From a virus, in IMG/VR virus record IMGVR_UViG_3300044739_000018, positions 1 through 64,000 of that record: 64,000 nucleotides of DNA, one strand, 5' to 3'. This document shows positions 29,815 through 63,529 of this stretch, piece after piece (the stretch's first letter is position 1; each line of letters begins with the position of its first letter). The translations under genes were made by a program, and so were the position numbers. The notes under the pieces were generated by a model, which was given only the letters and a program-made list of their open reading frames with translations, made no database searches and was not told the origin of the DNA.

Positions 29815-30012
29815 GGATGGCTTCATTGCCAAGGGGACTGTGGTGCGGTGTCCCGAGTGTGGCTATGAGATGAAGCTGGCGATCAAGTCGCGAGGAATGA
29901 CTTGTTCCCAGGGGGCTGGACGGCTTCCGCACAAGCCAAAGGAGATGGTGGAGGTATCCACCACGGTGAAATCAGGGGCCGTTACATTGACGGCCAGGAC
30001 AAGGAGGAAGTG

Positions 30013-46605: not shown

Positions 46606-47540
46606 CGGGTCAGAGCAGCCTCGACGGCCTTGATGGTCACGTCCTCGGTCTCGTGCTCACGCAGGTGCTCCAGTCCCTCGGAAAGCTCGATGGCCTCCTC
46701 GGCAAGCCCCACGGTCACAGCGATGACCTCGGCCACGCTCTCACCGCGGTCGTCCAGCAGGATGACGTTCTGCCCGAGCAGACCCTGCCATGCCTTGATG
46801 ATGGCGTCCTGGCTGCCGCTGTCGGTCGCAGGGATGAGGACGTAGACCTCGTACTTCTCCTGCAACTCGGCAAGGATGTCGGTGGTCGGGATGTTGTCGG
46901 TGATCTCGTCACCGATGACACGCCGGACCTCGCGAGCCTTGACCTGCGGGTAGGGAGCCTCGTCACCGATGATGAAGGCGTAGCCCTTGTGCTGACGCTT
47001 CTCGAAGCACTCGATGTAGGTCTTGCGGGCGAGGTAGTACATGCCCAGCTCGTAGGACTCGTAGCCCCAGCCGCCGCCGTTGCCCTCGATGAAGATGTTC
47101 TTCAGGTGCTCGTCCATGCGGTTGTCCGCCTCGAACTGCGCCATCTGGAGCGGCACGCGGTCAGACGTGGCGTCACCGACAGCCCCGAACATGATCTGCG
47201 GGTCCTCGACGTAGCCCTTCATCTGCACCAGCCCCAGCAGGGCGGGCAGCTTCTTCAACAGCGTCTCCGGGATCTCGCCCATGCTGCCGGTCACGTCGAA
47301 CAGCACGGCCACAGCCACGCTCTTGGGATGCTCCGGCAGGTCCATGGACTCGCGGATGTTGTCGCCAGCGTGAACGCCGTTGTTGTTCACGCTCTTGGGA
47401 TCGAGCGTCTCGTGCGCCTTCCACTCTGTCATGCCACGGCTGCGAGTCGTGTCGGTGTACTCGAAGCCGCTCTTGCCGGAACGCAACGTCGCACCAGTGG
47501 TGCTGGCGTAAACGTCCGTTGACCAGTTTCCTCCGCCCAT
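46602..47540 (-). CDS. von Willebrand factor A domain protein
   Basis: MIDAS-like FDVTGSM, GAVGDA, EGNGGG..ESYEL, IIGDE; start ATG 47540 with SD AGGAG. Confidence 0.8.
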   Translation of the reverse strand: MGGGNWSTDVYASTTGATLRSGKSGFEYTDTTRSRGMTEWKAHETLDPKSVNNNGVHAGDNIRESMDLPEHPKSVAVAVLFDVTGSMGEIPETLLKKLPALLGLVQMKGYVEDPQIMFGAVGDATSDRVPLQMAQFEADNRMDEHLKNIFIEGNGGGWGYESYELGMYYLARKTYIECFEKRQHKGYAFIIGDEAPYPQVKAREVRRVIGDEITDNIPTTDILAELQEKYEVYVLIPATDSGSQDAIIKAWQGLLGQNVILLDDRGESVAEVIAVTVGLAEEAIELSEGLEHLREHETEDVTIKAVEAALTR

Positions 47541-47815
47541 CAGCTTTCTCCTTGGTTGTGTTCGAAATTTCGCCCCACCGGGGGTTGAGAGTCTGAGTGT
47601 TGACTCTCGTTGATGAGGGTCCGTTGCTGCCGAAGAAGCAGCCAGAAGTACAGCCACCCAAACGGGACCATGAATAGGCCCATCACGAAGGCGTCAGCCC
47701 AGCCGATGTCCGCGGCCCACCCGCTAAAGGCGATGTTCACCAAGCCGGTGAGTGTGCAGGCACCGATGCTGCCAAGCAGTCCGTGAAGGACTGGTCGTTC
47801 GTGGAGCAAGCTCAT
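47540..47815 (-). CDS. Small two-TM membrane protein between the kinase-like and VWA genes
   Basis: Hydrophobic; overlap-coupled on both sides. Confidence 0.55.
   Translation of the reverse strand: MSLLHERPVLHGLLGSIGACTLTGLVNIAFSGWAADIGWADAFVMGLFMVPFGWLYFWLLLRQQRTLINESQHSDSQPPVGRNFEHNQGES
47563..47603. repeat. 41-bp dispersed repeat, copy 3
   Basis: CGAAATTTCGCCCCACCGGGGGTTGAGAGTCTGAGTGTTGA. Confidence 0.8.
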
Positions 47816-48597
47816 GCCATCGAGAAGGGTCGGAACCGGCGCGGCCCATACAGGCGCTCCAGAAGGTCGTCGAAATGCTCCTTGATCTGCCAAGGGTGGG
47901 CAGCCATCGTCGGCATCAGCATGGCGTTGAAGAAGGCGCGGTACTCCTTCGGGATGCCGTCAGGAATGGAGCCGTACTTCGGATCACCGCCCATCACATA
48001 GAGCATGGTGCGGGCAGCCATGGCGAGGTCCATCTGGTGGTACGCCTCGTGGCCGAGCACGGTCTTGGGGTACCAGTCCAGGTACTCCTGGCTCCAGAGG
48101 GTCTGGGGCATTTCCTCCATAGTGGAGTAGCACCAGTCCACGAGGACCAGCCCGTGCATTTCCGGGTGGATCATCACGTGGTCGGGCACGATGGCTCCGT
48201 GAACGAACTGCTGTTCATACGCGAAGCCGAGGACTACCAAGAGACGCCGAAACATCCAGGCCATATCCCTTGGGTCGATACCTCCAGGATACCGCGTCAG
48301 CACCTGCTTTAGCGAGTAGAAACCGTCCAGGTGAGTGAAAGCGTTCACCCACTTGCCGCCATCTGTGACGAAAGTCTCATGGAACTCGGGCAAGTAAGGC
48401 ACAAGCCTCGGGTCCGGTTCGTCCAGCAGCATCGAGAGGATCGACGCTTCCTTCGCGACGTGGCCTTCCTTGCCATCGTCGGACACCTTCAAGGCGTAGT
48501 AGTCGCCGTCCTTTAACGCACGGTAGATGGTGGCTTCCTCACCTTGCGCCGTCTCGTCGAGCAGCAGGTAGCTGCCCACCTGGTCACCGGGTTGCAT
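47812..48597 (-). CDS. Ser/Thr protein kinase-fold protein lacking the catalytic Asp (pseudokinase-like)
   Basis: YALKV (VAIK), KEASIL, catalytic loop VHGAIVPDHVMI, LVDWCYS (DFG position); start ATG 48597. Confidence 0.75.
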   Translation of the reverse strand: MQPGDQVGSYLLLDETAQGEEATIYRALKDGDYYALKVSDDGKEGHVAKEASILSMLLDEPDPRLVPYLPEFHETFVTDGGKWVNAFTHLDGFYSLKQVLTRYPGGIDPRDMAWMFRRLLVVLGFAYEQQFVHGAIVPDHVMIHPEMHGLVLVDWCYSTMEEMPQTLWSQEYLDWYPKTVLGHEAYHQMDLAMAARTMLYVMGGDPKYGSIPDGIPKEYRAFFNAMLMPTMAAHPWQIKEHFDDLLERLYGPRRFRPFSMA

Positions 48598-48753: not shown

Positions 48754-49390
48754 CTAGTCGTCCAGGTGGCTACGGATGGCCCTGTAGGCGTCCTCGCGGG
48801 TCTTGGTCCGACCACGGTGGTAACCGCGGCCGGGGATCTTGTAGTCGAAGGCGAACCAGCCCGCTTCCTCGTCAATCAGCCGGTCCAGGGCCTCGTCGGT
48901 TGTGTCGAAGCGCAGCACCTTCTCACTCATGCGTTGGCCGGTTCCTTGACCTTGGTGTAGCCGTAGATGACGCCGTTGCCGAACTCCCAGAGGATGCGAC
49001 CGTAGTTGCGGGTCACGTATCCCTGGGCGTTGCGCTGCGAGCCAAAGGCGTGGTACTCGGTGATCCTCCGGTTCGGGCCGTGAATCTCCACGAGGTGAGC
49101 ATCGTTCTCTTTGGTGATCGTGGCAAGCCACATGTATCCCCGCGGGATCGGCGTAGTGCGAGGAGTGTGGGACATCAGCCTCTCCTTGTGATCTTGTTCT
49201 TGACCAGTGCTAGGGCGTAGAGCGCCGATCCGATGGCCGCGATGACGCCAGCTATCAGCGCCATCGCAAGGCCAAAGGAAAGGAACGCCACAATGATTGG
49301 GATGAACAGGAGGATGAACGGGACAGCGTGGAAGCCAGTGAGCCTGACTGTCGTGGTGCCGTCGTCGTTGCGAATCCTCTGGACTGCCAT
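48754..49390 (-). CDS. Three small hypothetical proteins (48754-48930, 48927-49175, membrane protein 49175-49390)
   Basis: Coupled ORFs. Confidence 0.5.
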
Positions 49391-50328
49391 CAGTGCTTCA
49401 CCAGTCCGAGCATCTGCACGACGCTGCTCTCGAAGATCTGGAGACGGCTGTGCGTGTTGTCGAGCGTCTGCTCCAACAGGTTGCCGTACTCCTTCGTCTT
49501 GCCGGTGAGGGCGTGGTACTTGTTGAGGTACTCCTGGTACGCCTTCTCCGTGATCTTCTGCCCGCTGGTCTGGATCTCCTGCATCTTGACGAGCAGGCTG
49601 TCGATCTCGTCCGCGGTCTCGGCCTCGAAGGCACGCTGGAGCATTTCCCTCTGCTTGGTGTCGTCCACCAGCGGGAACTCCGAGCACGAGGACCCGTTGC
49701 CGAGTCCGTTCACGAACTCCTCGACGGCCTGGACCTCAGCAGCGAATTCCTCCGGCACGAAGTAAAGGCCGTTGCGAACGACGGTGGCACCGAGTCGGAT
49801 GATGAAGTGGCGCACCCACTCCCGCACCGTGTACCCCGTGACGCTGCCGCGCTGGCTGTTGTACTTCTGCTGCATTTCGGCGGCGATCACGTCGGCCATC
49901 GGGTTGCGGTAACCCGGCAGAGCGAGAGCCTCGAACTTGCCGCCAGCCTTCTCGAACGTCACGTCGTATGCCTGGTCGTAGGTGAGCCTGCGCCCGCCAC
50001 CGTCGACCTGCTCCACGACGATGCGGCGAACGATCTTGCCGTTGCCCTCAGGCACGTCGCGGACGAGGAAGTTCTCGTAGACGTTGGGGTTGCTGGTCGG
50101 CTCCTTCTTGCGCTCGCACTCCTTGGTGACACGCCGGAACGTGTCGGAGTCCTTCGGCATGAGAGGCAGGCTCTTGTCGATGCCTGCGGCCACCAGCCTG
50201 CGCACCACTTCGCTGTGGTCCATGCGCAGGTCGTTGACGGTGTAGTACACCAAGCGGCCGAGGAACATCTGCTTTCCGGCATTGGCCGCGTTGATGAGAC
50301 GCGTCTGCAAGTCGCTGTATGCGCTCAC
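49390..50328 (-). CDS. DUF6744/DUF3150-like protein
   Basis: LGRLVYYTV, P...D.FRR, GLYFVP, helical C-terminus; family assignment from recall only. Confidence 0.55.
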   Translation of the reverse strand: MSAYSDLQTRLINAANAGKQMFLGRLVYYTVNDLRMDHSEVVRRLVAAGIDKSLPLMPKDSDTFRRVTKECERKKEPTSNPNVYENFLVRDVPEGNGKIVRRIVVEQVDGGGRRLTYDQAYDVTFEKAGGKFEALALPGYRNPMADVIAAEMQQKYNSQRGSVTGYTVREWVRHFIIRLGATVVRNGLYFVPEEFAAEVQAVEEFVNGLGNGSSCSEFPLVDDTKQREMLQRAFEAETADEIDSLLVKMQEIQTSGQKITEKAYQEYLNKYHALTGKTKEYGNLLEQTLDNTHSRLQIFESSVVQMLGLVKH

Positions 50329-50565: not shown

Positions 50566-50802
50566 TCAGTTCAGGCCGTGGACCAGCACGTGGCGCACGT
50601 CGATGAGCAGCGTCTGGAGTTCCCGAATGTCCTTCGGCTCCAAAACGGTGCGGACGGCGCTGGCCTGGAGCCAGGTCTCCACATCCTTGACCAGCCCCTC
50701 GACGGTGACCTCGGGGACCGTGACCTCGACCTCGACAGCGGTGTCTGTCTCCACGCCTTCTGTATCGGCAGGGACAGCCTCGTCAACCAAGCCCTCGGTC
50801 AT
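50566..50802 (-). CDS. Hypothetical acidic protein
   Basis: Coupled ORF. Confidence 0.5.
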   Translation of the reverse strand: MTEGLVDEAVPADTEGVETDTAVEVEVTVPEVTVEGLVKDVETWLQASAVRTVLEPKDIRELQTLLIDVRHVLVHGLN

Positions 50803-51038
50803 ACGGTGTGCCCGAACCCGTCACGGAGCAGCCGACGAGCTGCCTCTGCCAAACGAGCATTGAGCCGGAAGGCATCGCCGGACGGGTGTCCGTTCTCGAT
50901 GTCAACCTTCAACCGACGCAACTTCCCGTGAAGCTCCACTGACCGCTTCGCCTTCTGCTGTGTGCCCAGCATCGAGAGGCTCGACAACTCCTGCTCCAGT
51001 GCCGCCAGGCTCAGCTCGATCTCCGCTGTTGTTGCCAT
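50799..51038 (-). CDS. Stand-alone homolog of the MoxR C-terminal helical domain (divergent copy)
   Basis: KAKRSVELHGKLRRLKVDIE...RLAEAARRLLRDGFG; SD GGAGG. Confidence 0.6.
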   Translation of the reverse strand: MATTAEIELSLAALEQELSSLSMLGTQQKAKRSVELHGKLRRLKVDIENGHPSGDAFRLNARLAEAARRLLRDGFGHTV

Positions 51039-51774
51039 CTGCTTCCTCCATGTTCGGTAGTTGGAACGCCTTCATTGCTTCCTTCCGTCCACACTCAGAG
51101 CATAGACGGACACCCTTCTCGTAACGGCTGATTGCGTGCCTGTGTCTCGGGGCTTCCGAGCCACAGTGTCCGCAGACGTAGCTCTTGGGGTGAAACACTG
51201 GCTCCAGGACGAACTCCGAGTAAGCCTCGGTGCCCGACCAGTAGTCGCTGCCCTCGTGGTGCTCGGAGAGCTTGACCGTGAACTCGCCTGTCACGTACTG
51301 CTGAATGAGGTCCCACCGATCCTCTATGTCCACGCAGGCACCAAGAACGTAGCTGTCTCGGCTCTGCTCGGGACCGCTGATGTACTCAGCGGTGCAGTTC
51401 TCTCCTGCCTCGCACGGGTCCTTGCAGTGCAGGTACAGCCGACCTTCCTCGATGGTTACGCCCCACTTGTGGTCCTGCGCCTTGCATGGCCGCTTGTCCT
51501 TCTTGGACCAGGGCTGGACCCAAAGGGGCCAGTACACGCACTCCGGGTAGGTCTCACGCTCCCAGGCGAGAGCGTCAACTACGTCGGCGTTCGACCAAAC
51601 CGGCGCTTCGATCCACTTGTGCTCAGGCCCGCGGCGGTGCCGTGAAAGAGCACCAATCCAGGTGGTCTCGTCGCGTCGCTTCTGATCCCACACCTTGGGT
51701 CCCCACCTGAGGGTCATGCGTTCTGCCCATGCCAGGACGACAGCATGCGGGTCGTCGTAGTTCTCGTCACTCAC
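50902..51774 (-). CDS. Hypothetical protein with C-terminal Zn ribbon
   Basis: CGHC...CSEC; start probably GTG 51774. Confidence 0.5.
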   Translation of the reverse strand: MSDENYDDPHAVVLAWAERMTLRWGPKVWDQKRRDETTWIGALSRHRRGPEHKWIEAPVWSNADVVDALAWERETYPECVYWPLWVQPWSKKDKRPCKAQDHKWGVTIEEGRLYLHCKDPCEAGENCTAEYISGPEQSRDSYVLGACVDIEDRWDLIQQYVTGEFTVKLSEHHEGSDYWSGTEAYSEFVLEPVFHPKSYVCGHCGSEAPRHRHAISRYEKGVRLCSECGRKEAMKAFQLPNMEEADGNNSGDRAEPGGTGAGVVEPLDAGHTAEGEAVSGASREVASVEG

Positions 51775-52174
51775 CGCCTCGACCTCCCATTGGATCCGAC
51801 TCTTGAACTTCTGCCGCGGCAAGTTCAGCCTCCATCTTCACGAGCTTGGCAGCGGCGGTCTCGACCTCGCGCATCGTTGGCGCGGGCGCTGCGTGTAGCT
51901 CATCGTGCAGGATCGACTCGGTTTGGTTCTCGGTCTGGAAGTTGCACTCTTGGCACACCCAGGCCCGCGTGGGCGGTGGTCCCATCAGGAGCGGCCGCTT
52001 GCCACAGGTTGCTGCGTGGTGGGTGCCCATGCGAATGTCGTTGAACCCCTTACCACAGCCAGGACACGTGTACTTCTGCGGCTGCTGCGGGTGGAGGGCG
52101 TAGACCACATGGCGCGTCAGTTCGGCATTGTTCCTAAATGCCTGGCCGCAATACACGCAGTCATACGTTGGCAT
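51767..52174 (-). CDS. Protein with three C2H2-type zinc fingers
   Basis: YDCVYCGQAF...HVVYALH; YTCPGCGKGF...HAATC; WVCQECNF...HDELH. Confidence 0.7.
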   Translation of the reverse strand: MPTYDCVYCGQAFRNNAELTRHVVYALHPQQPQKYTCPGCGKGFNDIRMGTHHAATCGKRPLLMGPPPTRAWVCQECNFQTENQTESILHDELHAAPAPTMREVETAAAKLVKMEAELAAAEVQESDPMGGRGGE

Positions 52175-52961
52175 CGGAATTTTGCCCCACCGAGAGTTGG
52201 GAGGTTGAGTGTTGATTCAACATCCCCTTCACGACCTCGGTCTTGCGGGCCTCCAGGTCGATCACTCGCTGTTCCAGAACGGGCGTTAGCGAGAGCACTT
52301 GTGTGACTTCCGCCAGTACGGCCTCGACCTCGGGCAAGTTGCCCGTCTCCACCGTCTCGTCGATGCGAGACAGCAGGGAGGCAAAAGACGACTCGGGGTT
52401 GAGCGCGACAGGAAGCGCGTCATCCATCATGTCGTTGACCTTGTGTCCGTCGTCGGCCTCGCGCTGCATGAGCAGGCGGGCCTTGGCGACCGCGTCCTGC
52501 TTCGTGCGGGCAAGAGTGTGGAGCGAGTAGCCCAGGTGATTGCCCTTGCTGCTCACGCGTCGGACACCCACGGCGTAGTGCTGCATGTTGTACCACTGCG
52601 CGTGGTTCCCGGCCGCCCCCAACAGCCATCCCTTGTAGCGGGTGCCCTTCACGAAATCTTCCGCGCCTGCGTAAGAGCGTGAGAACACGTAGATCTGCCA
52701 CTCGACTCGCGGCTTGCGGACTACGCCAACGGGGATGATCTCGTCGTCAGGCAGGTCCAACGAATCCAGGTGCTGCCGCCAATAGCGGCTTGTGGCCTTG
52801 CCGATCTGGCCGTCCCTCTTGTAGCGGGTGTAGAACTGCGCTCCACAGTCGCAGACCCAGTAGACGTTGTACTGGTTGATCTGCGTCTCAGTCAGACTGT
52901 GCCCTGGCCTGCCAGGGGCGAATCCAACCTCTGCGGCGGTCTTGCCGGTGAGTGTCGCCAT
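52161..52961 (-). CDS. Hypothetical protein
   Basis: 266-aa coupled ORF. Confidence 0.55.
   Translation of the reverse strand: MATLTGKTAAEVGFAPGRPGHSLTETQINQYNVYWVCDCGAQFYTRYKRDGQIGKATSRYWRQHLDSLDLPDDEIIPVGVVRKPRVEWQIYVFSRSYAGAEDFVKGTRYKGWLLGAAGNHAQWYNMQHYAVGVRRVSSKGNHLGYSLHTLARTKQDAVAKARLLMQREADDGHKVNDMMDDALPVALNPESSFASLLSRIDETVETGNLPEVEAVLAEVTQVLSLTPVLEQRVIDLEARKTEVVKGMLNQHSTSQLSVGQNSDANV
52175..52215. repeat. 41-bp dispersed repeat, copy 4
   Basis: CGGAATTTTGCCCCACCGAGAGTTGGGAGGTTGAGTGTTGA; abuts the ATG of 51767..52174. Confidence 0.8.
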
Positions 52962-53215
52962 CAGCCGGGCCTCACCAGCGGCTTGACGTTGCTGAACTTC
53001 AAGAAGTCGAAGCTGGGGTCACCCATCTTCTCCGCAGACGGCTCGTCCACAAACTTGAAGAAGGCGGTGGTGATGCCGAGTGCGTCAGCGACCTGGGACA
53101 CAAGGTCTACGCCACCTGAGTCGTAGTCGCCCCAGGTGATGATCTTGTCGTCCAGGTAGAGGTACTGCATCTCGCCCACGTAGTCGTAGTCGAGAACGAT
53201 GTTGATGGTTGCCAC
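52961..53215 (-). CDS. Hypothetical protein
   Basis: GTG 53215 with GGAGG SD and an A/C-rich leader. Confidence 0.55.
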   Translation of the reverse strand: MATINIVLDYDYVGEMQYLYLDDKIITWGDYDSGGVDLVSQVADALGITTAFFKFVDEPSAEKMGDPSFDFLKFSNVKPLVRPG

Positions 53216-53284
53216 GTTGGCCTCCGTTCGGTTTGGTTGGTTGTGAGAGGGGCCGGGGCTTCCCCGCACCGACCCCTCTCACGA

Positions 53285-53563
53285 TCATTTCAGCGGCGGA
53301 TCAGGCGGATACGCGATCTGGAAGATCTCGCTCAAAAGGATCCTCGCCACTCGGGTGAGTTCCTCCTGCTCGGCGTCTACATCAACGCCTGTTTTCGCAA
53401 GCTCGTCCAGATCACGCTTCGCATCCTCCAGCTTCTGGTGAATGCTGATGCCGTGCTTGTTCCTGATCTGCTTGTTGACCTGGCCTGCGTTGAAACGGCG
53501 AAGCAAGTCATCCAGGTCCAGGCCCGCCTGCTCGACGCGAGCGGCGATCTCGGAGACGCTCAT
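53285..53563 (-). CDS. Stand-alone homolog of the MoxR C-terminal helical domain, third gene of the MoxR-VWA operon
   Basis: NKQIRNKHGISIHQKLEDAKRDLD...VARILLSEIFQI; ATGA overlap with the VWA stop. Confidence 0.75.
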   Translation of the reverse strand: MSVSEIAARVEQAGLDLDDLLRRFNAGQVNKQIRNKHGISIHQKLEDAKRDLDELAKTGVDVDAEQEELTRVARILLSEIFQIAYPPDPPLK

Positions 53564-55176
53564 GCGCCACCGATTCCGCCGAAGATATCCCGGATATCCT
53601 CGCCGCCCTTCAAGTCCTTGATGGTGAGCACCCGCTTGTCGCAGATGGTTGCCAGAGGCTCGTCGGAGTAGCCGCCGCCGATCATGATGCCCCACACCGT
53701 GAAGCCCATGCGCTCCTGCTCCTTCTTGAACTCCGTCATCCACTGGTCGTTGACGCCGCAGGCACCGTCAGTGGCGAACACAATGTCGCCCTTGACGAAG
53801 CCGTTCTCGTCGAACTCTGCCCGCAGGTGGTCCAGCGAGCGGGACAGCGGCGTCATGAAGTCGGTGCCTCCCATGAAGGAGAACTCCGCCATGTCGATGA
53901 TCTTCTGCGTGTTGTAATCCTCCGGCTTGGAGAAGTCGAACTCCGCGATCTGATGCGTCGACCCGAAGGTGATGGCACGGAACGACCGCTTCTGAGCACG
54001 AGCCAGGTTGAGCAGGCAGAGGCCCACGGCCTTCGCCCACATTTCCGGCTCACCGCTCATGGACCCTGACGAGTCGTCGCAGTAGATGATGCCGCCCTTG
54101 CCGACCTTTTCCTCACCGCGCATCTCGTACTGGAGCAGGTTGCCCTCGATGAACTCCCGGTAGAAGTCCAGCTTCATGAGCGGGTTGCGCAGCTTCGAGA
54201 ACTGGACGGGCAGGACGCGAGCAAGGTCGTTGCCCTTGCCAATGTCGAACACTTCGTCCCTCGCGTGGTTGACCTTCCGACGCTGCTCGGTGAACATGAG
54301 CCGCTTCATCGGGCCGAAAAGCTCCGCGATCTTCTTCAACCGCGGGTTGTTGAGCTTGGCTGCCAGTTCCATGCGCTCCTTGGCGGGCATGCGCTGGAGT
54401 GTTCCCGGCTCCAGGCCCCACGCGTCGCCCTGCGCAGCCATTTCCTGCGCTTCCTTGACGGCGGCACCGAGAGCCTTCTTCATGGTCTGACGGACGGCAG
54501 GCGTCGCGTTCTTCATCGCCTGCTGGAAGTCCTTCGCGTTCTGCATGGCCTGGGCCTTCAACGCCTCCATCTGCTTGTTCAGCAGGGCGCGCTGCTTGTT
54601 CCAGTCCTGTGCCTTCTTCGCGTCCTCCGGGTCGTCCAGATCGAGGTCGTCGATCATTTCGTCCAAGGACCGAAGCTGCTCCTGCTGGTCGTGCAAGTCC
54701 TGGAGCTGCTTCTGCAACTCCTTGGCCTTCTCCTGCTCAGTCTTGAGCCGGTCGTGCAGGGTTTCGAGGTCGGGCCGCATCGCCATGGTGCCCATGGCCG
54801 CGGCAACCTCGTCGCCCACCGTGCCGAGGGAGCGAAGCTCGTCCCATTCCTTCAATTCCATGGCCTCGGAAGTGATGGTGTGGTCGATGACGTACTGCGG
54901 CTGCATGTCGCCCACGTCCTCGTGCTTCGGCTCGACCTTGACCAGTGACCAGTACGTGTCTGACCACAGGGCGTTGCCGGTGTCCACGGTGTCGCAGAAG
55001 CGATCCGCCTCGTTGGCGTACTCCTGCATCTGATCGCGGAGCCGTTCCTCATCCTCCACGTCGTACTTGTCGTGCTGGATCGAGTGCTTCGACAGCTTGC
55101 TCGGGTCGGGTGCGTTACCCGACTTCAAGAACTCGTCGAGGAAGCCCTTCTTCTTGCGCTTGCGCCAGTCTGCCAT
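53560..55176 (-). CDS. ViaA-like VWA domain protein with long coiled coil
   Basis: GNDLARVLP, DSSGSM MIDAS, GGTDF..PL, DIVFATDG. Confidence 0.85.
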   Translation of the reverse strand: MADWRKRKKKGFLDEFLKSGNAPDPSKLSKHSIQHDKYDVEDEERLRDQMQEYANEADRFCDTVDTGNALWSDTYWSLVKVEPKHEDVGDMQPQYVIDHTITSEAMELKEWDELRSLGTVGDEVAAAMGTMAMRPDLETLHDRLKTEQEKAKELQKQLQDLHDQQEQLRSLDEMIDDLDLDDPEDAKKAQDWNKQRALLNKQMEALKAQAMQNAKDFQQAMKNATPAVRQTMKKALGAAVKEAQEMAAQGDAWGLEPGTLQRMPAKERMELAAKLNNPRLKKIAELFGPMKRLMFTEQRRKVNHARDEVFDIGKGNDLARVLPVQFSKLRNPLMKLDFYREFIEGNLLQYEMRGEEKVGKGGIIYCDDSSGSMSGEPEMWAKAVGLCLLNLARAQKRSFRAITFGSTHQIAEFDFSKPEDYNTQKIIDMAEFSFMGGTDFMTPLSRSLDHLRAEFDENGFVKGDIVFATDGACGVNDQWMTEFKKEQERMGFTVWGIMIGGGYSDEPLATICDKRVLTIKDLKGGEDIRDIFGGIGGA

Positions 55177-55222
55177 TCAGACCATCCTTCCTATGCGCTT
55201 GGTGTTCGGTTCGGTTGGGGCA

Positions 55223-55270
55223 TCGGAGACGGTGCGCCCATCGGTGCATGGATAAACGCACCGTCTCCGA
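55223..55270. repeat. Perfect 14-bp inverted repeat (stem-loop) between the moxR-like and VWA genes
   Basis: TCGGAGACGGTGCG ... CGCACCGTCTCCGA with an inner CCAT/ATGG stem. Confidence 0.75.
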
Positions 55271-55285
55271 AGGTCTTGCAGGTTA

Positions 55286-56491
55286 CTACTGGACCTGCGA
55301 GGCGTCGATGCCGAAGATCTCCTTCAGCAGCGTGCGGGTGACGCCCAGCAGACGGGTGTTCAGCTCCGACATGGTGTCGGACTTGCGACCCGTCTTGACG
55401 GCCCGCTTCTCCAGTCCGTCCAGGTCGGCCTTCGCCCGCTCCAGCTTCCCGTGAAGCTCGATGCCCTTCTTGTTCTTGATCTGCTTGTTGTCCGAGTTCT
55501 TGATGACCTCGTCCAGATCGACAGCGAGCTTCTCGACCGTCTCCAGCAGATCCATGGCCTCCTTGTCCAGCGGGTTCGCCAGCTCCAGGACGGCCTTCTC
55601 GACGATGGCCTGCTCGTCGGGACGGGTCCAGAGGACGTGCCGCAGGAGACGCATGTCGTCGATATCCGCGACGGGCCGCTGGCTCATCCAGGCCGTGGCC
55701 TTGATGATCTTCAAGCACTCCGCGAAGCGACGGTCGGTCGGCTCGATGCCCTCCTTGCGCAAGTTGTTGCGCAGGGTGTTCATCGCGTCGAGCACGTCGT
55801 CGTTGACGTTGACCGCCTGGGACTCGACCTGAGCCTGGACGATCTCGTCCCACGTCACGATGGCCTGGGGCGCACCGGCGACCTGGAGCTTCAACATCTG
55901 GAGGAAGTTGCCCGCCTCCTGGATGGGACGCACGATGTGACGGAAGTGGACCCGGTCGTACATCGCTTCGAGTTCCTCACCCTGCGGCAGCTCGTTGCTG
56001 GCGCAGAACAGGGTCGAGAGCGGCACGTTGATCGGCACGTCGTTGTAGAAGATCCGCTCGTTCATGATGGTCAGGAGCGAGTTGAGGATCGACGAGTTGG
56101 CCTTGAAGATCTCGTCCACGAAGGCCAGCTTCGCCGTGGGCAGCATGCCCTTGACGTTGCGCCGGTACTCGTCGTTCTCCAGGGCCGTGAGGCTCGGGGG
56201 ACCGAACAGTTCCTCGGGGGTCGAGAAGCGGGTGACCAGACGCTCGAAGTACTCGTCCGGGCCGATCCCGCCGATGTGCGCCTTCATCGTGCGCACGAGC
56301 CGCGACTTCGCCGTTCCGGGCGAGCCGAGCTGGAAGTGGTGCACGCCGCCGATGACGGCGATGGTGCCCGTCATCGTCTCCTTCGACCGCTCGACCAACT
56401 CGCTGTTCAGCGTGTCGATCAGCAGTTCGAACTTGGCCTGGAGCGGCGCAGGGGCCGCGGCAGGAGCGGGCGTGGTGGTGGTGTCGCTCAA
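55286..56491 (-). CDS. MoxR/RavA-type AAA+ ATPase
   Basis: GSPGTAKS, FSTPEELFGP, FVDEIFKANSSILNSLL, ASNELP, YDR, DRR; TTG start 56491 with GGAGG. Confidence 0.9.
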   Translation of the reverse strand: MSDTTTTPAPAAAPAPLQAKFELLIDTLNSELVERSKETMTGTIAVIGGVHHFQLGSPGTAKSRLVRTMKAHIGGIGPDEYFERLVTRFSTPEELFGPPSLTALENDEYRRNVKGMLPTAKLAFVDEIFKANSSILNSLLTIMNERIFYNDVPINVPLSTLFCASNELPQGEELEAMYDRVHFRHIVRPIQEAGNFLQMLKLQVAGAPQAIVTWDEIVQAQVESQAVNVNDDVLDAMNTLRNNLRKEGIEPTDRRFAECLKIIKATAWMSQRPVADIDDMRLLRHVLWTRPDEQAIVEKAVLELANPLDKEAMDLLETVEKLAVDLDEVIKNSDNKQIKNKKGIELHGKLERAKADLDGLEKRAVKTGRKSDTMSELNTRLLGVTRTLLKEIFGIDASQVQ

Positions 56492-56537
56492 TTTTCCTCC
56501 ATGGGTGTTGGTTTGGTTGGGTGGTTGGACTGCTTGG

Positions 56538-56566
56538 ACCCTACGGGTCTGTGCAGGTTGAGTCAA
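56538..56566 (-). promoter_or_regulatory. SigA-type promoter of the moxR-like operon (TTGACT-N17-TAGGGT)
   Basis: Near-consensus -35 and -10 in the intergenic gap. Confidence 0.65.
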
Positions 56567-56588
56567 GCATTTCGTGAGGAGAAAGCCG

Positions 56589-56618
56589 ATTTCCACAGGC
56601 CGCGGCAGGTTATCCACA
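56589..56618 (+). promoter_or_regulatory. Two DnaA-box-like sites (ATTTCCACA 56589, TTATCCACA 56610)
   Basis: One perfect TTATCCACA and one single-mismatch box, 21 bp apart, upstream of the moxR promoter. Confidence 0.5.
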
Positions 56619-56645
56619 GCCGTTGGTGCTTTCGCTCAACGAACG

Positions 56646-58410
56646 TTACTCCGTGTCGCTGTCCTCGACGACTGGCAGGACAGGCGTCCTGTTGAACAGC
56701 CGTTGGGTGAGGTAGGGGATGAAAAGGTCCAGGAAGACTTCCGCCGAAGTTGCCGGGACGTGGATGGCCCAGGTTCGCGGCGGGGTGCCATAACCAGGGT
56801 TGACGTTGACATCCTCGACGCCGTGAAGTTGCAACAGGTCGTGGAGACGGGTCCAGGGTTCCGCGGCCTTTTCGGCTGCTTGCTGGTTGAGCTTGGCCTG
56901 GATGTCCTTCTTTGCCTGCTCGAACCGCTTTTCCTCGACACCTTCCTCTACTTGCTCCCATGGCTTGATCTTGCGGCTGGAGCACTTGATCGTCGAGGGG
57001 TTGCCCTGGCCGTCCTTGATGGGACTCCAGTCGTCATCCATCAATGTCAGCGTGTGTAGGGCGTCGTAGCCGTCGCTGCTGTCGATGTACTTGACCTGCG
57101 CCTTGCGAGCAGCGGAGTGTTTACGCGGGACGTATGCGACTCTCATTCCGTACCGCATCTGTCGTCGGTTCACGGCAGGGTTGGCTCCACGTCTGCTTCC
57201 TCCTCTGTTGTTCCGTCGCGCAGCTTGCTGCGCATTTCGTAGTCGGCGGGAAGGTCGAACCTCTTGCTACAGATCCCACACATGAGGATCTCGCCCTGGA
57301 TGTTGCTGTCGAACGCCTTCTTGTCGTGAGCCAGGAACTTGCCGTTGTCCTCCACGTGGTAGAAGAACTCGTTGTTCCTGACGAGCACGAAGCTGCCCGC
57401 ATGGCCCTCGGGGCAACGCAGCACCGGAATTGATGCCAGCAGCCTGCTGATTTCGTCTTGCTCGCTCACTCAGTACCTCCTTCCAGGCTCTCGTGAAGCT
57501 CCATGAGCTTCTCCACTGTGCCATCAATGTCATCGGGCGTCACCTTGATGGCGACGATGTTCTCGACGTTGAGGATCGTGCGCAGCCGTGCCCTGCCACT
57601 CTTGGTCTTTTGCCAGGAGTACGCCTTCTTGGGCGCGCCATCAGGTGTGACCTCAGTAAGCGTGACCGAGCAGGATGGCTTCCCGCTGCGCATGATCGGC
57701 TTGCCCTCTGAGTTATTGCGGTTGATGCGCTCCACGATGCCGAACCGCAGGTCAGCGGAGCTTCCGGACACGGCGGCGTAGGCCACAAGATCACCGGGGC
57801 CATACGCTGTCCCCAAAGGATCACTCCAGCCCGGCCATTCCTCTTTCTTAGGCAAGATCAGCCTCCAGCTTTCGTAGCGAGTTCACGACTTCCGCGATGT
57901 CAGCGTCGGTCGTGGAGACCGGATAGACCATCGCTACACCCTTGTGGTCTGGGCCAAGCCCGCTGGCCGTTGGGTGGTTTTCGATGCCAGCGTCACGCCG
58001 CCAGTTGTAGACCTCCTTGCACGAGGCACAAGTGGAGTTGTGCTGGCCCCACCAGTGCTCTCGCTTGCCGTGTTGGCCCCGGCATCCTGCCTCCTTGGAG
58101 CACAACTCGGGGCACACTGTCACTTCCTCGCCGCCCCACAGTGATCTGCGTTCGGTGGGATACTTCACGCCAGGTCCTTCTCCATGGAGAGCAGCTTGTT
58201 GATGGCAGCCTGCACTTCGTTGTCGGTGGGCAGAGTGCCTACCTCCGCGACGCTCAGCTCTTGCACGGCCTCCAGGATTTCCTCCTGGGTGACACCTTCG
58301 GATTGCAAGCGGAGGATGTACTCCGGGTCCCGAAGGCCGACAATGATCTCGTCAGTCGTGCAGTCGTACACACGCCAGCGGTCAACGTCGAACGCAATGC
58401 GGGAGTTCAT
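56646..58410 (-). CDS. Five hypothetical proteins (56646-57173, 57170-57469, 57466-57855, 57848-58168, 58165-58410)
   Basis: Contiguous overlapping minus-strand ORFs. Confidence 0.5.
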
Positions 58411-59228
58411 ACTGCTACCTGCTTGTTGGTGAAGGTGCCGTCAAGCTGGGCGATCATGCACTCCAGCGGCGACTTGTCGGTGCGCTGCCGGATCAGGCGG
58501 GGCTGCACGAGCCGAGGCTTGTCGGGGTTGACGCAGTAGAGGAACTTGACCTCAATTACGTCGCCAACTTTCAGGTCATTACCGCGCTTTCCGATGATCG
58601 AGGACTTGCCTATTTCGACAATTTTTCCGTCCTTGAACACGCCATAGGCGCAATTGTCCTTGCCGTCAACGTGCATTCTGGTGACGATGGCGTCCACCGT
58701 CTTGACGAACTTGTGTTTGCGCATGATGTCCACGCGTCTGCCGGGACGGTAGGTGCCATCGAGCTTCTTGAACATGACACCTTCGCAGTCCTTCGCGAGC
58801 ATTTCGTCCAGGAGGGCACGCTTGTCAGCCTCATCCTTGGCGCAGACCGAGAGCTGGATGCAGTCGGATGGTGCCCACTTGGCAAAGAACACTTCCAGAG
58901 CCTTACGCCTGGTCCTGTACGGCGTGTTCAGGCCGATGTGCGTGCCAGCGACGGGAAGGTCGAACACAACCAGGGTGTCCCCGATCATTTCTCCGTCCCA
59001 GACCCAGGTGCCGGTGGTGAAGGCGCGGAACTCGGCGGCCAGTCTCGGCGGCAGGATGGTGCGGCTGGAGTCCCGGCCGCGGAGAGCGGTGATCTCACCA
59101 TCTTCGATGTGGACCATGTAGCGCACGCCGTCGTACTTGCGCTCCGCCCACCACTCGTCAGACGTGAGGTAGAACTCGGAACGATTTGACTCGGCGTTGT
59201 TCGCCATCATGGGGCTAAGCAAATCCAT
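58407..59228 (-). CDS. ATP-dependent DNA ligase (minimal)
   Basis: ERKYDGVR (motif I), DGEM, VFDL, EGVMFK, KHK, OB-fold EVKF..PRL. Confidence 0.88.
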   Translation of the reverse strand: MDLLSPMMANNAESNRSEFYLTSDEWWAERKYDGVRYMVHIEDGEITALRGRDSSRTILPPRLAAEFRAFTTGTWVWDGEMIGDTLVVFDLPVAGTHIGLNTPYRTRRKALEVFFAKWAPSDCIQLSVCAKDEADKRALLDEMLAKDCEGVMFKKLDGTYRPGRRVDIMRKHKFVKTVDAIVTRMHVDGKDNCAYGVFKDGKIVEIGKSSIIGKRGNDLKVGDVIEVKFLYCVNPDKPRLVQPRLIRQRTDKSPLECMIAQLDGTFTNKQVAV

Positions 59229-59509
59229 GTTGCTCCCTTCGGTTCAGTTCGTTCGCCATGTCTGCCAGCTTCATGGCGACATGGGCCAGTTGTTCCTCGG
59301 TGATGACCTCGGTGACTACGCTGTCGAGGTGACAGGAGCACACACACGGCGGGCTACCTGCCCTTTTGATGATGCCGTCGCACTTCCCGTGCGAGCTGAC
59401 CTGTGAGCAATTGCCCTGTGCCTGGTTGTGCCAGTGTTCACACGCCGCCTTGCCGAGCCTCTGATACTCGGTAAGCCACGTGCCACAGACCGTGCAGTGG
59501 TAGTGGTCG

Positions 59510-59962
59510 TTAGAACTCAAGACCAAACGCCTTCCGCTCTCGGCGCTTCTGTCGCCACTTCCTCATGTACTCGCGTCGTTCCTCGGTACAAGAAGGCGTG
59601 GACGGGCAGTCGGCCTTGCTGCGGCAGCCGTAGGTGTAGCCGGTGACGGTGCCGTGGGGAATCTGCTCCGCCGTGTGGTTGTGCTCACCGTTGACGCAGT
59701 TCTCATGCGAGGCACCGTGCTTTCGGTAGTCGCGTGGTGCGGGCTTGGCGAAGAACGGCTTGACCAGGTGTGAGTCGGGATCGTTGAGGATCTGGAACAC
59801 ACGTTGACGTGAGACGCCGTAAATCTTGCCGATGGCCTCCAACGTCCAGTGCTTGTCCCGCAGCAACTTCATGTGCTGGTTCCGCTCGGCTAGTTCGCGC
59901 CGTACCGCCATGACGGCATCGAACTTTGCCTGCGAAGCCAGCTCGCGATCCCGCCGATTCAC
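59510..59962 (-). CDS. HTH DNA-binding protein (sigma-70 region-4-like)
   Basis: WTLEAIGKIYGVSRQRVFQIL; C-terminal HGT..GY..GCR motif. Confidence 0.65.
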   Translation of the reverse strand: MNRRDRELASQAKFDAVMAVRRELAERNQHMKLLRDKHWTLEAIGKIYGVSRQRVFQILNDPDSHLVKPFFAKPAPRDYRKHGASHENCVNGEHNHTAEQIPHGTVTGYTYGCRSKADCPSTPSCTEERREYMRKWRQKRRERKAFGLEF

Positions 59963-61113
59963 TGGCCCCGAGTTACGTCACGCCAGCGGGCATCGACCTC
60001 TTTGGCCGACCCGCCGTACCGCCTGCGACGCGTTGTCTCGCCCCACCCAAAGCAAGCTGCTCCGACGCCAGCGCAGGCCCAGAAGATGATGCCGCCCACC
60101 GCGCTGGCACAGAAGATGCGGACGAGGCCGAAAGCGATCCGGCCTGCGTCAGTGGGGTTGGCCTTGGCTCCGTCCACGACGGCAACGATGCCGCCAATGA
60201 ACAGGATGTAGAAGCCCACGTAGAAGCCGAGGACGACTCCTGCGAGGATGAACAGAACTCCGAGGATGTACTTCACATTCTCTCCTGTCGCATGGTGGGG
60301 TCGCTCTCCATCCACCTGGGGGTCTTGGGATCTTTGGCGACGCGGGACTCCAACTCCAGCTTCGCCTGTTCGAGCCGTCGTCCGAGCGCCACGTAGTCGG
60401 TCTGCTCCTGCAACTCGCGCAGGGACTTGTCGAGGTAGTCAGACTTCTCGCGCTCCAGTGCCCACCGCTTGCGGTCCAACTCCAACTTGCGTTCCTTGGG
60501 ATGGACGATGCCGCTGTACGCGGCAGCGATGAGGGCGAGAGCGATGATGGTCAGACAGATCGTGAGAATCATCAGACCTCCGTGGTGTCCGCCACGAGCA
60601 GCACGGCGGGGATGATGTCGTCGATGCCGGGGTCAAGGCCGCACTCGGTGACGGGATACACGTCCAGGGCCTCCACCCAAACGGGCAGGTTTCCGTCGTG
60701 CTCCTGGAGTGCTGCGATCAGTTCGCTGACAGTCATGATGCCTCCTGCTCCGGGTTGGTGTCGGGAAGCTGTCCCTTCATGAGATCCTGCGCCATGCGCA
60801 GAGCCGAAGCGGCAGCGTCGTCCACTTTCTTTTCTTCCTCGGACTTCTGCTGGCCCTTCATCATTTCCTCGAACGCGGCGTTGACCTCGTCCGCGTCATC
60901 GAGGCGCTCGTGCTCAGGCGTCTGCTCCCGAGTTGCCTCGGCAGCCACCGCCTTCTGGGCGTCCTCGTCGAAGATGAACATGGCTTGGACCATGTGCGGG
61001 CCGTTGTCCATGTTCGGGAGTACTGCGAAGGTGTGCAGTTCCAGACCGGCTTCCTTTGCGACCTTCTCCAGATGCTCACAGAGCTTCTTGATCGGGTCCA
61101 TCGGGTCTGCCAA
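59959..61113 (-). CDS. Small hypothetical proteins (membrane proteins 59959-60276 and 60273-60572; 60733-61113)
   Basis: Coupled ORFs; hydrophobic segments in the first two. Confidence 0.5.
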
Positions 61114-61611
61114 TTACTTCACCGCCTTTCGGGTACGGGCCTTGGGGGCCGCCTTGGGTGTGGGTGTGGGCGGAGTTTCGTCCAGCGTCGACATGTTGAT
61201 GCCGAAGATCCCAGCCAGCAATGCCGAGGTCACGGTGTGGAGCAGCTCAGCGGCGAGGCGCACCTGGGGCACATCCCTGGAGTGGTCACCGATGGCCCTC
61301 TCGATGCGGTCCAAGTCGGACTTGGCACGCTCGATCTTGCCGTGAAGCTCGATGCCCCGCTTGTTCTTCATCTGCTTGTTCTCGCTGCCGTTGATGCACT
61401 CGTCCAGAGCGACGGCAAGGTGCTGGACCGTCGTGACGAGTTCCTGAGCCTCGACGTAGGCGTTGGCGGTCGTAGTCAGCGGCGGTGGCTGGGCGATGTT
61501 GACCAGGCGGGCGAGTGCGTCAGCGAAGTCGATGGGCTTTGCGGGCGGTGTTGCGGTCGTGTCGAGGACGCCTTCGACTGCGACGACTTGTACGTCGAGA
61601 ATGACCTTCAT
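61114..61611 (-). CDS. Stand-alone homolog of the MoxR C-terminal helical domain (closest copy)
   Basis: LAVALDECINGSENKQMKNKRGIELHGKIERAKSDLD...LLAGIFGI; 28 of 37 identical to the MoxR segment; start ATG 61611. Confidence 0.8.
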   Translation of the reverse strand: MKVILDVQVVAVEGVLDTTATPPAKPIDFADALARLVNIAQPPPLTTTANAYVEAQELVTTVQHLAVALDECINGSENKQMKNKRGIELHGKIERAKSDLDRIERAIGDHSRDVPQVRLAAELLHTVTSALLAGIFGINMSTLDETPPTPTPKAAPKARTRKAVK

Positions 61612-62729
61612 GACTGCTCCTTGTTTTTCAGTTCGGTTGCCAGGGCTTGTAGGGACAGGCTGGTGGCGAGGACACTCTCGAAGGGAAGCCCGTCGTAGAG
61701 CACGCCACCATTCTGCTTGTTGTTGTATTCGATGCGGTCGATCTTGTCGGTTTCGAGCACCATGAATCCGCTGCTGTTGCGGGTGCCGGTGTAGATGCCC
61801 GGGCTGTAGAGCTTGCCGTTGGGCACGGTGATGGCACCGAACCTGCCGCGGTGCTCCGTGCCATCGTCCATTGTGATCTTCATGATCGGCTTCGGGTCCT
61901 GCTTCTTGGCCCACATGAACACGTCGATCACGTCTTTGGGTGTGGCATCAGGAAAGACGATGCCACCCGAGCTGCCTTGCACGATGGGCATTACGGTTCC
62001 ACGACTTCGTAGCCGGGGATGTAGCCGACTTCCACCAGCCACTTCGCAACTGCCTCGGGACCGTTGGCGGCGATCTTGGCAAGTTCATGGTTCATGGCGT
62101 CCTGCGCCAAGTCCCAGAGGTCGCCTTCATCCAGAATCTCGTCGGGATCGTCGGTTACGTGGATCTTCACGTGTACTTCTCCTTGATCTTGGTGATCTCA
62201 TGCTCGTCCAGGCGTGCTTCGATCTCCTTCACGCGGGCGGCGAGGCAGATGATGCACTGGTCGTTCAGGACCCCATGAGGACAAGCCGCTGCTGGCTTTG
62301 AGGACACCCGACGCCTGGGAACGGACGTTGGTACTTGTCCGGTTGCCTGCAACATGCGCTGGTGCTCGGCCTGGTCAATGAGGGCAGCCAAAGCCGAGGA
62401 ACCCTCGACCGTTTCCCCTGCGGCTTCCAGTTCTTTGCGCCGCTCTTGTGCCCGCCTGAGCAGGCGCTCAGGAATCTCGGTCACCGGATCTGTTCACACC
62501 TGTTGAGCGGGAAGTTGCTCAGCAGGTCTGGGTAGCCATCACCCGAGACGTGATCGTCGTAAACGTCCCTTGGCACCCAATAGATCGAAGCGCCGGGCAC
62601 GTAGCGTGCCAGCGTCTCGATATCGAGGTAGTCGGGCTTGGCCTGGTCGTGAACCCGTCCGTCCACGTACACAGCGTTGTAGCTATCGCTCTGCACGAGG
62701 ACGGTACGGGTGCCATTGGGCAGGTCCAC
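61608..62729 (-). CDS. Small hypothetical proteins (61608-61991, 62167-62484, 62481-62729)
   Basis: Coupled ORFs downstream of the Ku-like gene. Confidence 0.5.
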
Positions 62730-63529
62730 TAGCTGACAGCCTCGATGCTGGCAGCGAGCAGCGCCTCGAAGTCCTGCTCCGGCGAACGCTTGGGAGTGGA
62801 CGGCGTGCTGGAAGCGGGCACCGGAGCACCCATCTTGGCAGCGACCAACTCAGCGATGCGCTGGCGGGTCTTGCTGGCGTAGTCGCCCGGATCGAACGCC
62901 TCGGCCAGCGTCTCGATGAACTGGAGCGCCTTCTGGACGGTCTTGTCCTCGACCGTGGCCGAGTCGGTGCTGATCCCGTTCACGTCCTCGGGCCGGAGAA
63001 GCTCGGTGACGACGAGGTTGCCGTTCCATGCCCGCAGCCGCACCAGCTTGGTGCCACCCCGGCTCATCGCGATCTCACCCAGGAAGGCGTACTCGGCGTC
63101 CGGGTCCTGCAAGATGGCGAGGAGAACAGCGTGAAGCTGGTTCTTGGCCGAGGGGATGAAGGCGTACGAGTTACCCAGCGGGTAGGTGTACGGCTCCACT
63201 TCCTCGATTTTGTGCGGGACGAGGACGAGCATGCCCTTGTCCAACTCCGACTTCTTGGCCTCCGCGACCTCGTCGGCGTCGACCAGCACGTAGTTGTCCT
63301 TGCTGGTCTCACGCATCCGGCCACACTCGCCGGTCTTGCCGATGACGCCGTGCTGCTCACAGATGTAGGTCTGCGAGACACCGTGGGCGTCAGCGACGGT
63401 GGAGTGAGGACAGGCCAGCTTGAAGCCTTCCTCCTTGTCTGCACCCGACCGCTTGATCGGGTAGAAGTCGCCCTGCATCTGCATCAGCGGACCCAGGGAG
63501 ATTGTTACGTTGCTCTGCGCCTTGCGCAT
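62729..63529 (-). CDS. ku: Ku-like DNA end-binding protein
   Basis: TISLG, YVLVDADEV, SYAFIP, LLRPEDV, ALQFIETLAEAFDPGDY...RIAELVAAK, DFEALLAASI follow the bacterial Ku core pattern. Confidence 0.75.
   Translation of the reverse strand: MRKAQSNVTISLGPLMQMQGDFYPIKRSGADKEEGFKLACPHSTVADAHGVSQTYICEQHGVIGKTGECGRMRETSKDNYVLVDADEVAEAKKSELDKGMLVLVPHKIEEVEPYTYPLGNSYAFIPSAKNQLHAVLLAILQDPDAEYAFLGEIAMSRGGTKLVRLRAWNGNLVVTELLRPEDVNGISTDSATVEDKTVQKALQFIETLAEAFDPGDYASKTRQRIAELVAAKMGAPVPASSTPSTPKRSPEQDFEALLAASIEAVS

What the first reader, a model, noticed from the sequence alone, without database searches (positions are those of the whole stretch)
50799..61611. MoxR AAA+/VWA system whose C-terminal domain recurs in three separate small genes
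Seen: the ~95-aa C-terminal helical domain of the MoxR/RavA ATPase (~55286-55580; LAVDLDEVIKNSDNKQIKNKKGIELHGKLERAKADLD...LLKEIFGI) recurs in three genes that have no ATPase domain. These are 61114-61611 (LAVALDECINGSENKQMKNKRGIELHGKIERAKSDLD...LLAGIFGI, 28/37 identical in the core), 53285-53563 (NKQIRNKHGISIHQKLEDAKRDLD...LLSEIFQI, coupled to the VWA gene) and 50799-51038 (KAKRSVELHGKLRRLKVDIE...LLRDGFG). All have SDs or coupled starts and differ in divergence, so they look like maintained genes rather than debris. Established: MoxR ATPases work with VWA adaptors, and in E. coli RavA an accessory C-terminal region (the LARA domain) binds the partner LdcI. Inference: this basic helical module is the target- or partner-recognition domain. 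The free copies could be dominant-negative regulators, decoys for a host factor or defence sensor that recognises the ATPase, or tags that recruit substrates. I do not know of a described MoxR system with several free copies of its C-terminal domain.
Basis: partly seen in the sequence, partly recalled or inferred. Interest (0 to 1): 0.85.

Follow-up and report, generated by a model that had tools for sequence, protein, structure and literature searches.

The report
Phage copies of ATPase docking domain
A soil phage carries three small extra genes copied from the tail of its MoxR motor protein; that tail appears to be where the motor docks onto its partner protein, so the copies probably act as competitors or decoys of that docking, an arrangement that recurs in related phages and that I did not find described.

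Summary
Confirmed. A complete 163-kb actinobacterial phage encodes a RavA-type MoxR ATPase, a ViaA-like VWA protein and DUF6744. Exactly three other genes carry the ATPase's ~90-aa C-terminal domain. That domain is a three-helix bundle in the position of RavA's triple-helical domain, not LARA. Across paired MoxR/VWA proteins, its conserved Lys349 is kept or lost together with VWA Asp36 (110 of 111 pairs). The same analysis finds a charge-swapped contact elsewhere, so the bundle most likely docks on the VWA N-terminus. The free copies keep this basic face and lose the ATPase-specific linker. They show purifying selection (dN/dS 0.13-0.51), are gained and lost gene-by-gene in close relatives, and arose several times from MoxR tails. 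About 50 non-ATPase carriers exist (free, tandem, or fused to rIIB, a mini-VWA or Rv2632c-like domains), and those with genome context mostly lie on MoxR-bearing contigs. Best reading: competitors or sponges of MoxR-VWA docking, the phage's own or a rival phage's (0.5). Binding and expression are inferred, not shown. New variant of a known kind.

The parts
55286..56491 (-). RavA-type MoxR AAA+ ATPase, 401 aa (Walker A GSPGTAKS, Walker B AFVDEI), no LARA insertion
   Evidence: Pfam bpMoxR/AAA_5/AAA_lid_8; 276 bits to RavA 3nbx residues 6-304; model aligns to 3nbx 3-497, Z 34.5, rmsd 10.4; motifs
55313..55573 (-). C-terminal three-helix bundle (residues about 307-393), counterpart of RavA's triple-helical domain; conserved face E345, H347, K349, L388-L389, F393
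   Evidence: AlphaFold pLDDT 91, three helices; conservation; K349 co-varies with VWA D36
53560..55176 (-). ViaA-like VWA protein, 538 aa: N-terminal domain with D36/D39/K80, coiled coil, ViaA-type middle domain, VWA domain with MIDAS DxSxS
   Evidence: hhalign to Salmonella ViaA 174-452, probability 99.5; invariant D368/S370/S372; phrog_24053
61114..61611 (-). Free copy c1, 165 aa: about 50-aa N-terminal extension, three-helix bundle, low-complexity basic tail
   Evidence: 54% identical to the MoxR tail; orthologue in L003, dN/dS 0.51, P 6e-4; precisely absent in L010
53285..53563 (-). Free copy c2, 92 aa, bundle only, translationally coupled (ATGA) to the VWA stop
   Evidence: 44% identical to the MoxR tail; dN/dS 0.44 against the tail, P 0.006; sister of P0128 from another sample, support 97/85; slot empty in L003 and holding a small CxxC gene in L010
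50799..51038 (-). Free copy c3, 79 aa, shortened bundle inserted behind the RBS of the downstream gene
   Evidence: 86% identical to its L010 orthologue, dN/dS 0.13, P 7e-10; 13 of 14 changes in the non-overlapped part are at third codon positions; precisely absent in L003
49390..50328 (-). DUF6744 protein, 312 aa, probable third component of the phage MoxR-VWA system
   Evidence: Pfam PF20529, E 4e-46; within 10 kb of 47 of 80 viral MoxR loci and 9 of 80 cellular ones

Best explanation
The three-helix tail is the MoxR's docking site for its VWA adaptor. Its basic face (K349, probably E345) binds the adaptor's N-terminal domain (D36, K80), while a second contact joins the AAA+ core (E105) to the adaptor's middle domain (K335). 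Shown: fold, position, covariation. Inferred: physical contact. Phages of this actinobacterial clade repeatedly copy the tail into separate small genes that keep the docking face but have no motor. These proteins bind the VWA N-terminus and act as competitors or sponges that uncouple or titrate a MoxR-VWA(-DUF6744) machine. The target may be the phage's own machine (tuning or timing) or that of co-infecting relatives; the latter would explain several divergent, individually dispensable copies per genome. Which machine is hit, and what it remodels, is not known.
For: Three-helix bundle in the position of RavA's triple-helical domain. In E. coli, ViaA stimulates RavA only if that bundle is present, and LARA is dispensable for this (PMC10585395; PMC9489729). 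K349/D36 is the top inter-protein pair (APC-MI z 9.3; mean-field DCA z 8.0). Of 111 pairs, 98 keep both, 12 lose both and 1 is discordant; there are about 10 changes on the tree, and 5.6 of 6 independent pairs go the same way, none opposite (sign test p 0.03-0.06). Positive control: E105/K335 shows a true charge swap (E-K/R 111, K/R-E 39). All three window copies keep this Lys, as do 49 of 58 free domains (K or R). Free copies keep the R/K-N-K/R-x-G-I-E-x-H-x-K and LLx(E/D)xF motifs and lose the NPLD linker and the G-R-K-S loop. Purifying selection. Repeated origin from MoxR tails: not one clade (p-AU 0.013), with well-supported MoxR/copy sister pairs; an rIIB-fused copy is 95% identical to its own phage's tail. 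Extra copies sit near MoxR in L003, L005, L010, L012, L220 and L221.
Against: No binding or expression data. K349/D36 is a joint keep-or-lose pattern, not a charge swap, and it rests on about six independent contrasts. For E. coli the ViaA middle domain, not its N-terminus, was mapped to the bundle, and the bundles of RavA and this MoxR share no detectable sequence similarity. Motif conservation among free copies is inflated because they were found with a motif-bearing HMM. c2 has Ser at the E345 position. An inhibitor of the phage's own machine would be expected as one conserved gene rather than several variable ones.
Confidence: 0.5

Rival explanations
1. Decoys for a host factor. A host sensor, inhibitor or protease recognises the most constrained surface of the phage MoxR (the docking face), and the free copies soak it up.
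For: Several divergent, accessory copies per genome (window 3; L220 three domains in two genes; L222 two adjacent genes). They lie among many small variable genes. Two copies are fused to rIIB and two lie just downstream of rIIA/rIIB-like genes. A surface fixed by VWA binding would also be a natural pattern for a host sensor (inference).
Against: No such host factor is known. Extra copies of a trigger would normally activate, not silence, a sensor (own knowledge). The retained residues are fully explained by VWA docking.
Confidence: 0.2
2. Tethers or tags. The bundle recruits whatever it is fused to (rIIB, mini-VWA plus Rv2632c-like, small N-terminal domains) to the VWA-MoxR machine, for example through the second arm of a VWA dimer.
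For: At least six unrelated fusion partners. Two rIIB fusions sit apart on the tree. E. coli ViaA purifies as a dimer (PMC9489729). c1 keeps a conserved N-terminal extension (47% identical to L003).
Against: About 17 carriers, including c2 and c3, are essentially the bare domain with nothing to tether. rIIB in L222 lacks the domain. Phage gene fusions arise easily by recombination.
Confidence: 0.15
3. Duplication debris, or a stable helical domain co-opted for unrelated jobs.
For: Each copy is missing from some close relative. dN/dS of c1 and c2 is only 0.44-0.76, and not significant for c1 against the MoxR tail. The L012 fusion is too recent to show selection. Some database hits (P0129, P0131, P0137, P0160) look like MoxR fragments.
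Against: c3 has dN/dS 0.13 with almost only third-position changes. Frames stay intact at synonymous distances of 0.6-1.1. Only this domain of the operon is copied. Polar surface residues are kept at 25% mean identity.
Confidence: 0.1
4. One reading: a LARA-like accessory domain that recognises an outside target protein, with free copies competing for that target.
For: The C-terminal position and basic surface are compatible with some binding role.
Against: LARA is a beta-barrel inserted into the triple-helical domain (PMC10585395; PMC4124505). This domain is all-helical and continuous, and it co-varies with the VWA protein.
Confidence: 0.05

Closest known systems
E. coli RavA-ViaA (MoxR AAA+ / VWA; PDB 3NBX; PMC10585395, PMC9489729)
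   Same: RavA-type AAA+ module (276 bits), a C-terminal three-helix bundle in the same position, and a partner with a ViaA-type middle domain and VWA domain. The bundle is implicated in partner coupling in both.
   Different: No LARA insertion; continuous bundle with unrelated sequence; partner has a different N-terminal domain and a long coiled coil; phage-encoded with DUF6744; free and fused copies of the bundle, which I found no report of for RavA.
Viral MoxR-VWA pairs: Acidianus two-tailed virus p618/p892 (PMC4124505), Bacillus phage 0305phi8-36 orf66/orf63 (PMC3357382), Moorella phage MTATph1, jumbo-phage MoxR-vWA (PMC7824862)
   Same: Virus-encoded MoxR ATPase next to a VWA protein. In 0305phi8-36 the island holding the pair is deletable, with a growth defect.
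   Different: Only 28-38% identical. Each locus's own MoxR tail found no extra copy within 10 kb in the distant viral or cellular loci tested. Here the genes lie among small early-type genes, not virion genes.
NorQ-NorD and CbbQ-CbbO (MoxR/VWA remodellers; PMC9976466)
   Same: One VWA adaptor engages the hexamer at two sites, pore side and ring side, as the two covarying contacts suggest here.
   Different: NorQ is a bare AAA+ module without the C-terminal bundle, and its targets are known metalloenzymes.
bpMoxR MoxR-vWA ternary conflict systems (PF20030; PMC7159879)
   Same: Pfam bpMoxR matches the ATPase (E 6e-43).
   Different: No beta-propeller, VMAP or effector gene was recognised next to it in the window or the close relatives; the model matches only residues 66-235.

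Membership tests
MoxR AAA+ ATPases, RavA subfamily | Single AAA+ module with Walker A/B and lid, closest to RavA | tested here: met
MoxR AAA+ ATPases, RavA subfamily | Triple-helical domain directly after the AAA+ module | tested here: met
   Helices 307-332, 336-367, 372-391; structural alignment reaches RavA residue 497 with 346 aligned, rmsd 10.4. Positional and fold equivalence only; no sequence similarity
MoxR AAA+ ATPases, RavA subfamily | Adjacent VWA partner with MIDAS motif and ViaA-type middle domain | tested here: met
MoxR AAA+ ATPases, RavA subfamily | Hexamer whose ATPase is stimulated by the VWA partner | not testable with these tools
   Needs biochemistry
Enterobacterial RavA-LdcI system (LARA domain) | Beta-barrel LARA domain inserted in the triple-helical domain | tested here: not met
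   The 401-aa model has no strands after residue 187 apart from 2-residue bridges, and the bundle is continuous
MoxR-vWA-beta-propeller ternary conflict system | Linked beta-propeller/VMAP adaptor and effector genes | tested here: inconclusive
   None among Pfam-annotated neighbours, but many neighbours have no family
Known three-helix families (BAG, spectrin, Habc, GAT) | Significant sequence or outstanding structural match | tested here: inconclusive
   Z up to 12 with many tied generic bundles; no Foldseek E<0.001; no Pfam family shared by the members

The most novel reading that the evidence does not exclude
Phages of one clade interfere with each other's (or a host's) MoxR-VWA remodelling machines by repeatedly spinning off the ATPase's adaptor-docking bundle as diversified stand-alone inhibitors or decoys: a self-derived class of AAA+ adaptor antagonists.
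Probability: 0.3. Interest if true: 0.8.

Novelty: new variant of a known kind. Interest (0 to 1): 0.62.

Why it matters
How RavA-type MoxR ATPases engage their VWA adaptors is known only from truncation experiments, and what phage MoxR-VWA pairs do is largely open. This finding gives two residue-level, testable contacts (K349-D36 and E105-K335). It also offers natural small proteins that should block the interaction, which are ready-made tools. If the copies are inhibitors, they reveal a layer of regulation or phage-versus-phage conflict around a widespread three-gene module (MoxR, VWA, DUF6744). They are also a clear case of new genes arising repeatedly by copying one domain.

Tried and rejected
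Complex prediction of c1 with VWA residues 28-538: no answer (score 0.29, mark 0.32); not used as evidence either way. Fold searches of the bundle in PDB, BFVD and the ESM Atlas gave only generic three-helix matches. No Pfam or PHROG family covers the domain. No match to the tail among 50,697 GenBank phages. Pattern scans with A2 could not run. Scans with A1, P0128 and P0139 returned one MoxR locus or nothing, so dN/dS between c2 orthologues could not be computed. A sample of 401 cellular genomes (phylum of G006, unnamed) gave four weak hits, none on a MoxR or a small free gene and all reading as coiled coils. No RNA holder is listed. The sigma-70 promoter scan found nothing and terminators were at chance level. 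The direct repeats found are the coding copies themselves; no flanking repeat or mobile-element end was seen. Apart from the two top pairs (and a weaker E345-K80, z 4.9), covariation scores were within noise. Literature searches found no paper on DUF6744, nothing useful on DUF3150, and none on free copies of a MoxR tail; the library lacks most subscription journals. P0129, P0131, P0137 and P0160 were excluded as probable MoxR fragments. The LARA analogy and an assembly artefact were considered and rejected.
Full report
Setting. The window is the first 64 kb of a complete 163,481-bp phage genome (127-bp end overlap, 60% GC). A whiB gene (30739-30936) points to an actinobacterial host, and the holding runs are soil metagenomes. 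The finding lies in a minus-strand arm of mostly small genes with Ku, an ATP-dependent ligase, adenylosuccinate synthetase and RuvB.

Observation. The C-terminal 100 aa of the ATPase match three other ORFs at 54%, 44% and 40% identity (E 5e-22, 3e-13, 2e-7), and nothing else in the window above noise. A genome-wide HMM scan finds exactly four copies. c1 and c3 have good ribosome-binding sites, and c2 is coupled to the VWA stop. One contig of even depth spans the region. The ATPase most likely starts at TTG 56491 (401 aa).

What the domain is. The ATPase is of the RavA type: the family HMM matches RavA residues 6-304 at 276 bits, and the AlphaFold model aligns to 3NBX from residue 14 to 393 against 3 to 497 (Z 34.5, 346 aligned, rmsd 10.4). 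The tail folds as three antiparallel helices (pLDDT 91). RavA has, after its AAA+ module, a triple-helical domain (307-330 and 442-497) interrupted by the beta-barrel LARA domain (PMC4124505; PMC10585395). The repeated unit is therefore the counterpart of the triple-helical domain, and LARA is absent. The equivalence rests on position and fold; there is no sequence similarity. The same tail, more diverged, ends many phage and bacterial MoxRs of this type. The VWA protein is homologous to ViaA over the middle and VWA domains (residues 243-503 against 174-452, probability 99.5). DUF6744 lies near 47 of 80 viral MoxR loci and is probably a third component.

What the tail binds. In E. coli, ViaA stimulates RavA with or without LARA, but not the bare AAA+ module, which implicates the triple-helical bundle (PMC10585395). 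I paired MoxR and VWA sequences from the same loci or contigs (222 pairs, about 125 effective). Two inter-protein pairs stand out in both MI and mean-field DCA. The first is MoxR E105 (printed as E104) with VWA K335, which shows a clean charge swap (E-K/R 111, K/R-E 39) and serves as a positive control. The second is tail K349, the Lys of the H-G-K-L motif, with D36 in the VWA N-terminal H-D-K-Y-D motif. Of 111 distinct pairs, 98 keep both residues, 12 lose both and one is discordant. Each residue is the other's best partner among 369 and 486 columns. On the tree, 5.6 of 6 independent contrasts agree and none oppose (p 0.03-0.06). E345, one turn away, pairs more weakly with VWA K80. I infer that the bundle docks on the VWA N-terminal domain.

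The free copies are selected, dispensable and recurrent. c3 against its orthologue in L010 gives dN/dS 0.13 (P 7e-10), with 13 of 14 changes in the non-overlapped, motif-bearing part at third positions. c1 against L003 gives 0.51 (P 6e-4), and c2 against the MoxR tail 0.44 (P 0.006); neighbouring genes give 0.04-0.24. Yet L010 (MoxR 98% identical) lacks c1 and c2, and L003 (89%) lacks c2 and c3, with junctions at gene boundaries. A profile search of 1.8 billion cluster representatives returned 67 proteins. About 50 lack an ATPase domain: bare domains of 83-114 aa, domains with short extensions, tandem doubles, and fusions to rIIB or to a degenerate VWA-like domain plus an Rv2632c-like domain. 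Where context was read, these mostly lie near a MoxR-VWA pair (L005, L012, L220, L221). Seven more share a contig length with a MoxR in the hit lists (inferred link). L222 has two copies and no MoxR within its 11.5 kb, and L013, L014 and L219 are too short to tell. Of ten clade loci picked by their MoxR, three have a clear extra copy and one a weak one. Outside this clade, no MoxR locus among 211 tested had a copy of its own tail within 10 kb. The copies are not one clade (p-AU 0.013), and several are sisters of their own phage's MoxR. The own MoxR ranks far higher than under permutation (P 2e-4), although shared ancestry contributes to this. The rIIB fusion in L012 is 95% identical to its own tail. 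Free copies keep the polar R/K-N-K/R-x-G-I-E-x-H-x-K face and LLx(E/D)xF at 25% mean identity, and drop the NPLD linker and the G-R-K-S loop; this is subject to search bias.

Mechanism. Shown: RavA-type machine; three-helix tail; repeated, selected, accessory copies that keep one face; covariation of that face with the VWA N-terminus. Inferred: that the face binds VWA and that the copies do too. Most likely (0.5), the copies compete for the adaptor and so uncouple or titrate a MoxR-VWA machine, the phage's own or a co-infecting relative's. Rivals are decoys for a host factor (0.2), tethers for fused cargo (0.15), debris or co-option (0.1) and LARA-like target recognition (0.05). The substrate of the machine is unknown. 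In phage 0305phi8-36 the island carrying the pair is non-essential but its loss slows growth (PMC3357382).

Verdict. A real feature. The core is a new member of the known RavA-ViaA-like MoxR/VWA kind; the recurrent free and fused docking domains are a variant I did not find described. Interest 0.62.

Noticed in passing
L005:2221-3498; proteins P0133, P0146, P0149: A family of 350-425-aa phage proteins joining a small degenerate VWA-like domain (DxSGS...GG...TD motifs; only a weak Pfam VWA_CoxE hit, E 0.16), the three-helix bundle and an Rv2632c-like domain with a charged tail.
   Followed up: partly
L012:7974-11323; L222:3100-7810; P0164: rIIA/rIIB-like gene pairs in this phage clade; the bundle is fused to rIIB twice, and two free copies lie just downstream of an unfused rIIB. 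The window's own genome has no rIIB hit.
   Followed up: partly
window 49390-50328: DUF6744 accompanies MoxR-VWA in 47 of 80 viral loci but only 9 of 80 cellular loci; no paper in the library mentions it. Probable third subunit or substrate.
   Followed up: partly
window 53285-53563 and L010:11892-12059: The slot right after the VWA stop is a swappable cassette: c2 here, a 55-aa CxxC...CxxC gene with the same ATGA overlap in L010, a short spacer in L003.
   Followed up: partly
window 50902-51038: c3 was inserted behind the RBS of the downstream gene, so the upstream 306-aa ORF now reads 137 nt into c3 in another frame; the gene caller missed c3 in L010, probably for this reason.
   Followed up: yes
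window 62729-63529 and 58407-59228: Ku-like protein and a minimal ATP-dependent DNA ligase (end-joining-like pair); the ligase is a constant upstream neighbour of the MoxR across the clade.
   Followed up: no
window 45280-48597: Adenylosuccinate synthetase gene next to a 335-aa gene of no family and a protein-kinase-like ORF, conserved in L003, L008 and L010; could be a nucleotide-modification or signalling cluster.
   Followed up: no
window 23817-30936: Primase-helicase fusion, DNA methylase, B12-dependent (class II) ribonucleotide reductase and whiB.
   Followed up: no
P0171; P0206, P0213, P0214, P0262, P0267: An intein with LAGLIDADG domain in a relative's MoxR, and LAGLIDADG-bearing long forms of the VWA protein (probable inteins); HNH genes flank the operon in L007.
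   Followed up: no
window 47555-47606 and 52167-52218: A 52-nt, 79% identical repeat spanning gene boundaries 4.6 kb apart; possible recombination or regulatory motif.
   Followed up: no
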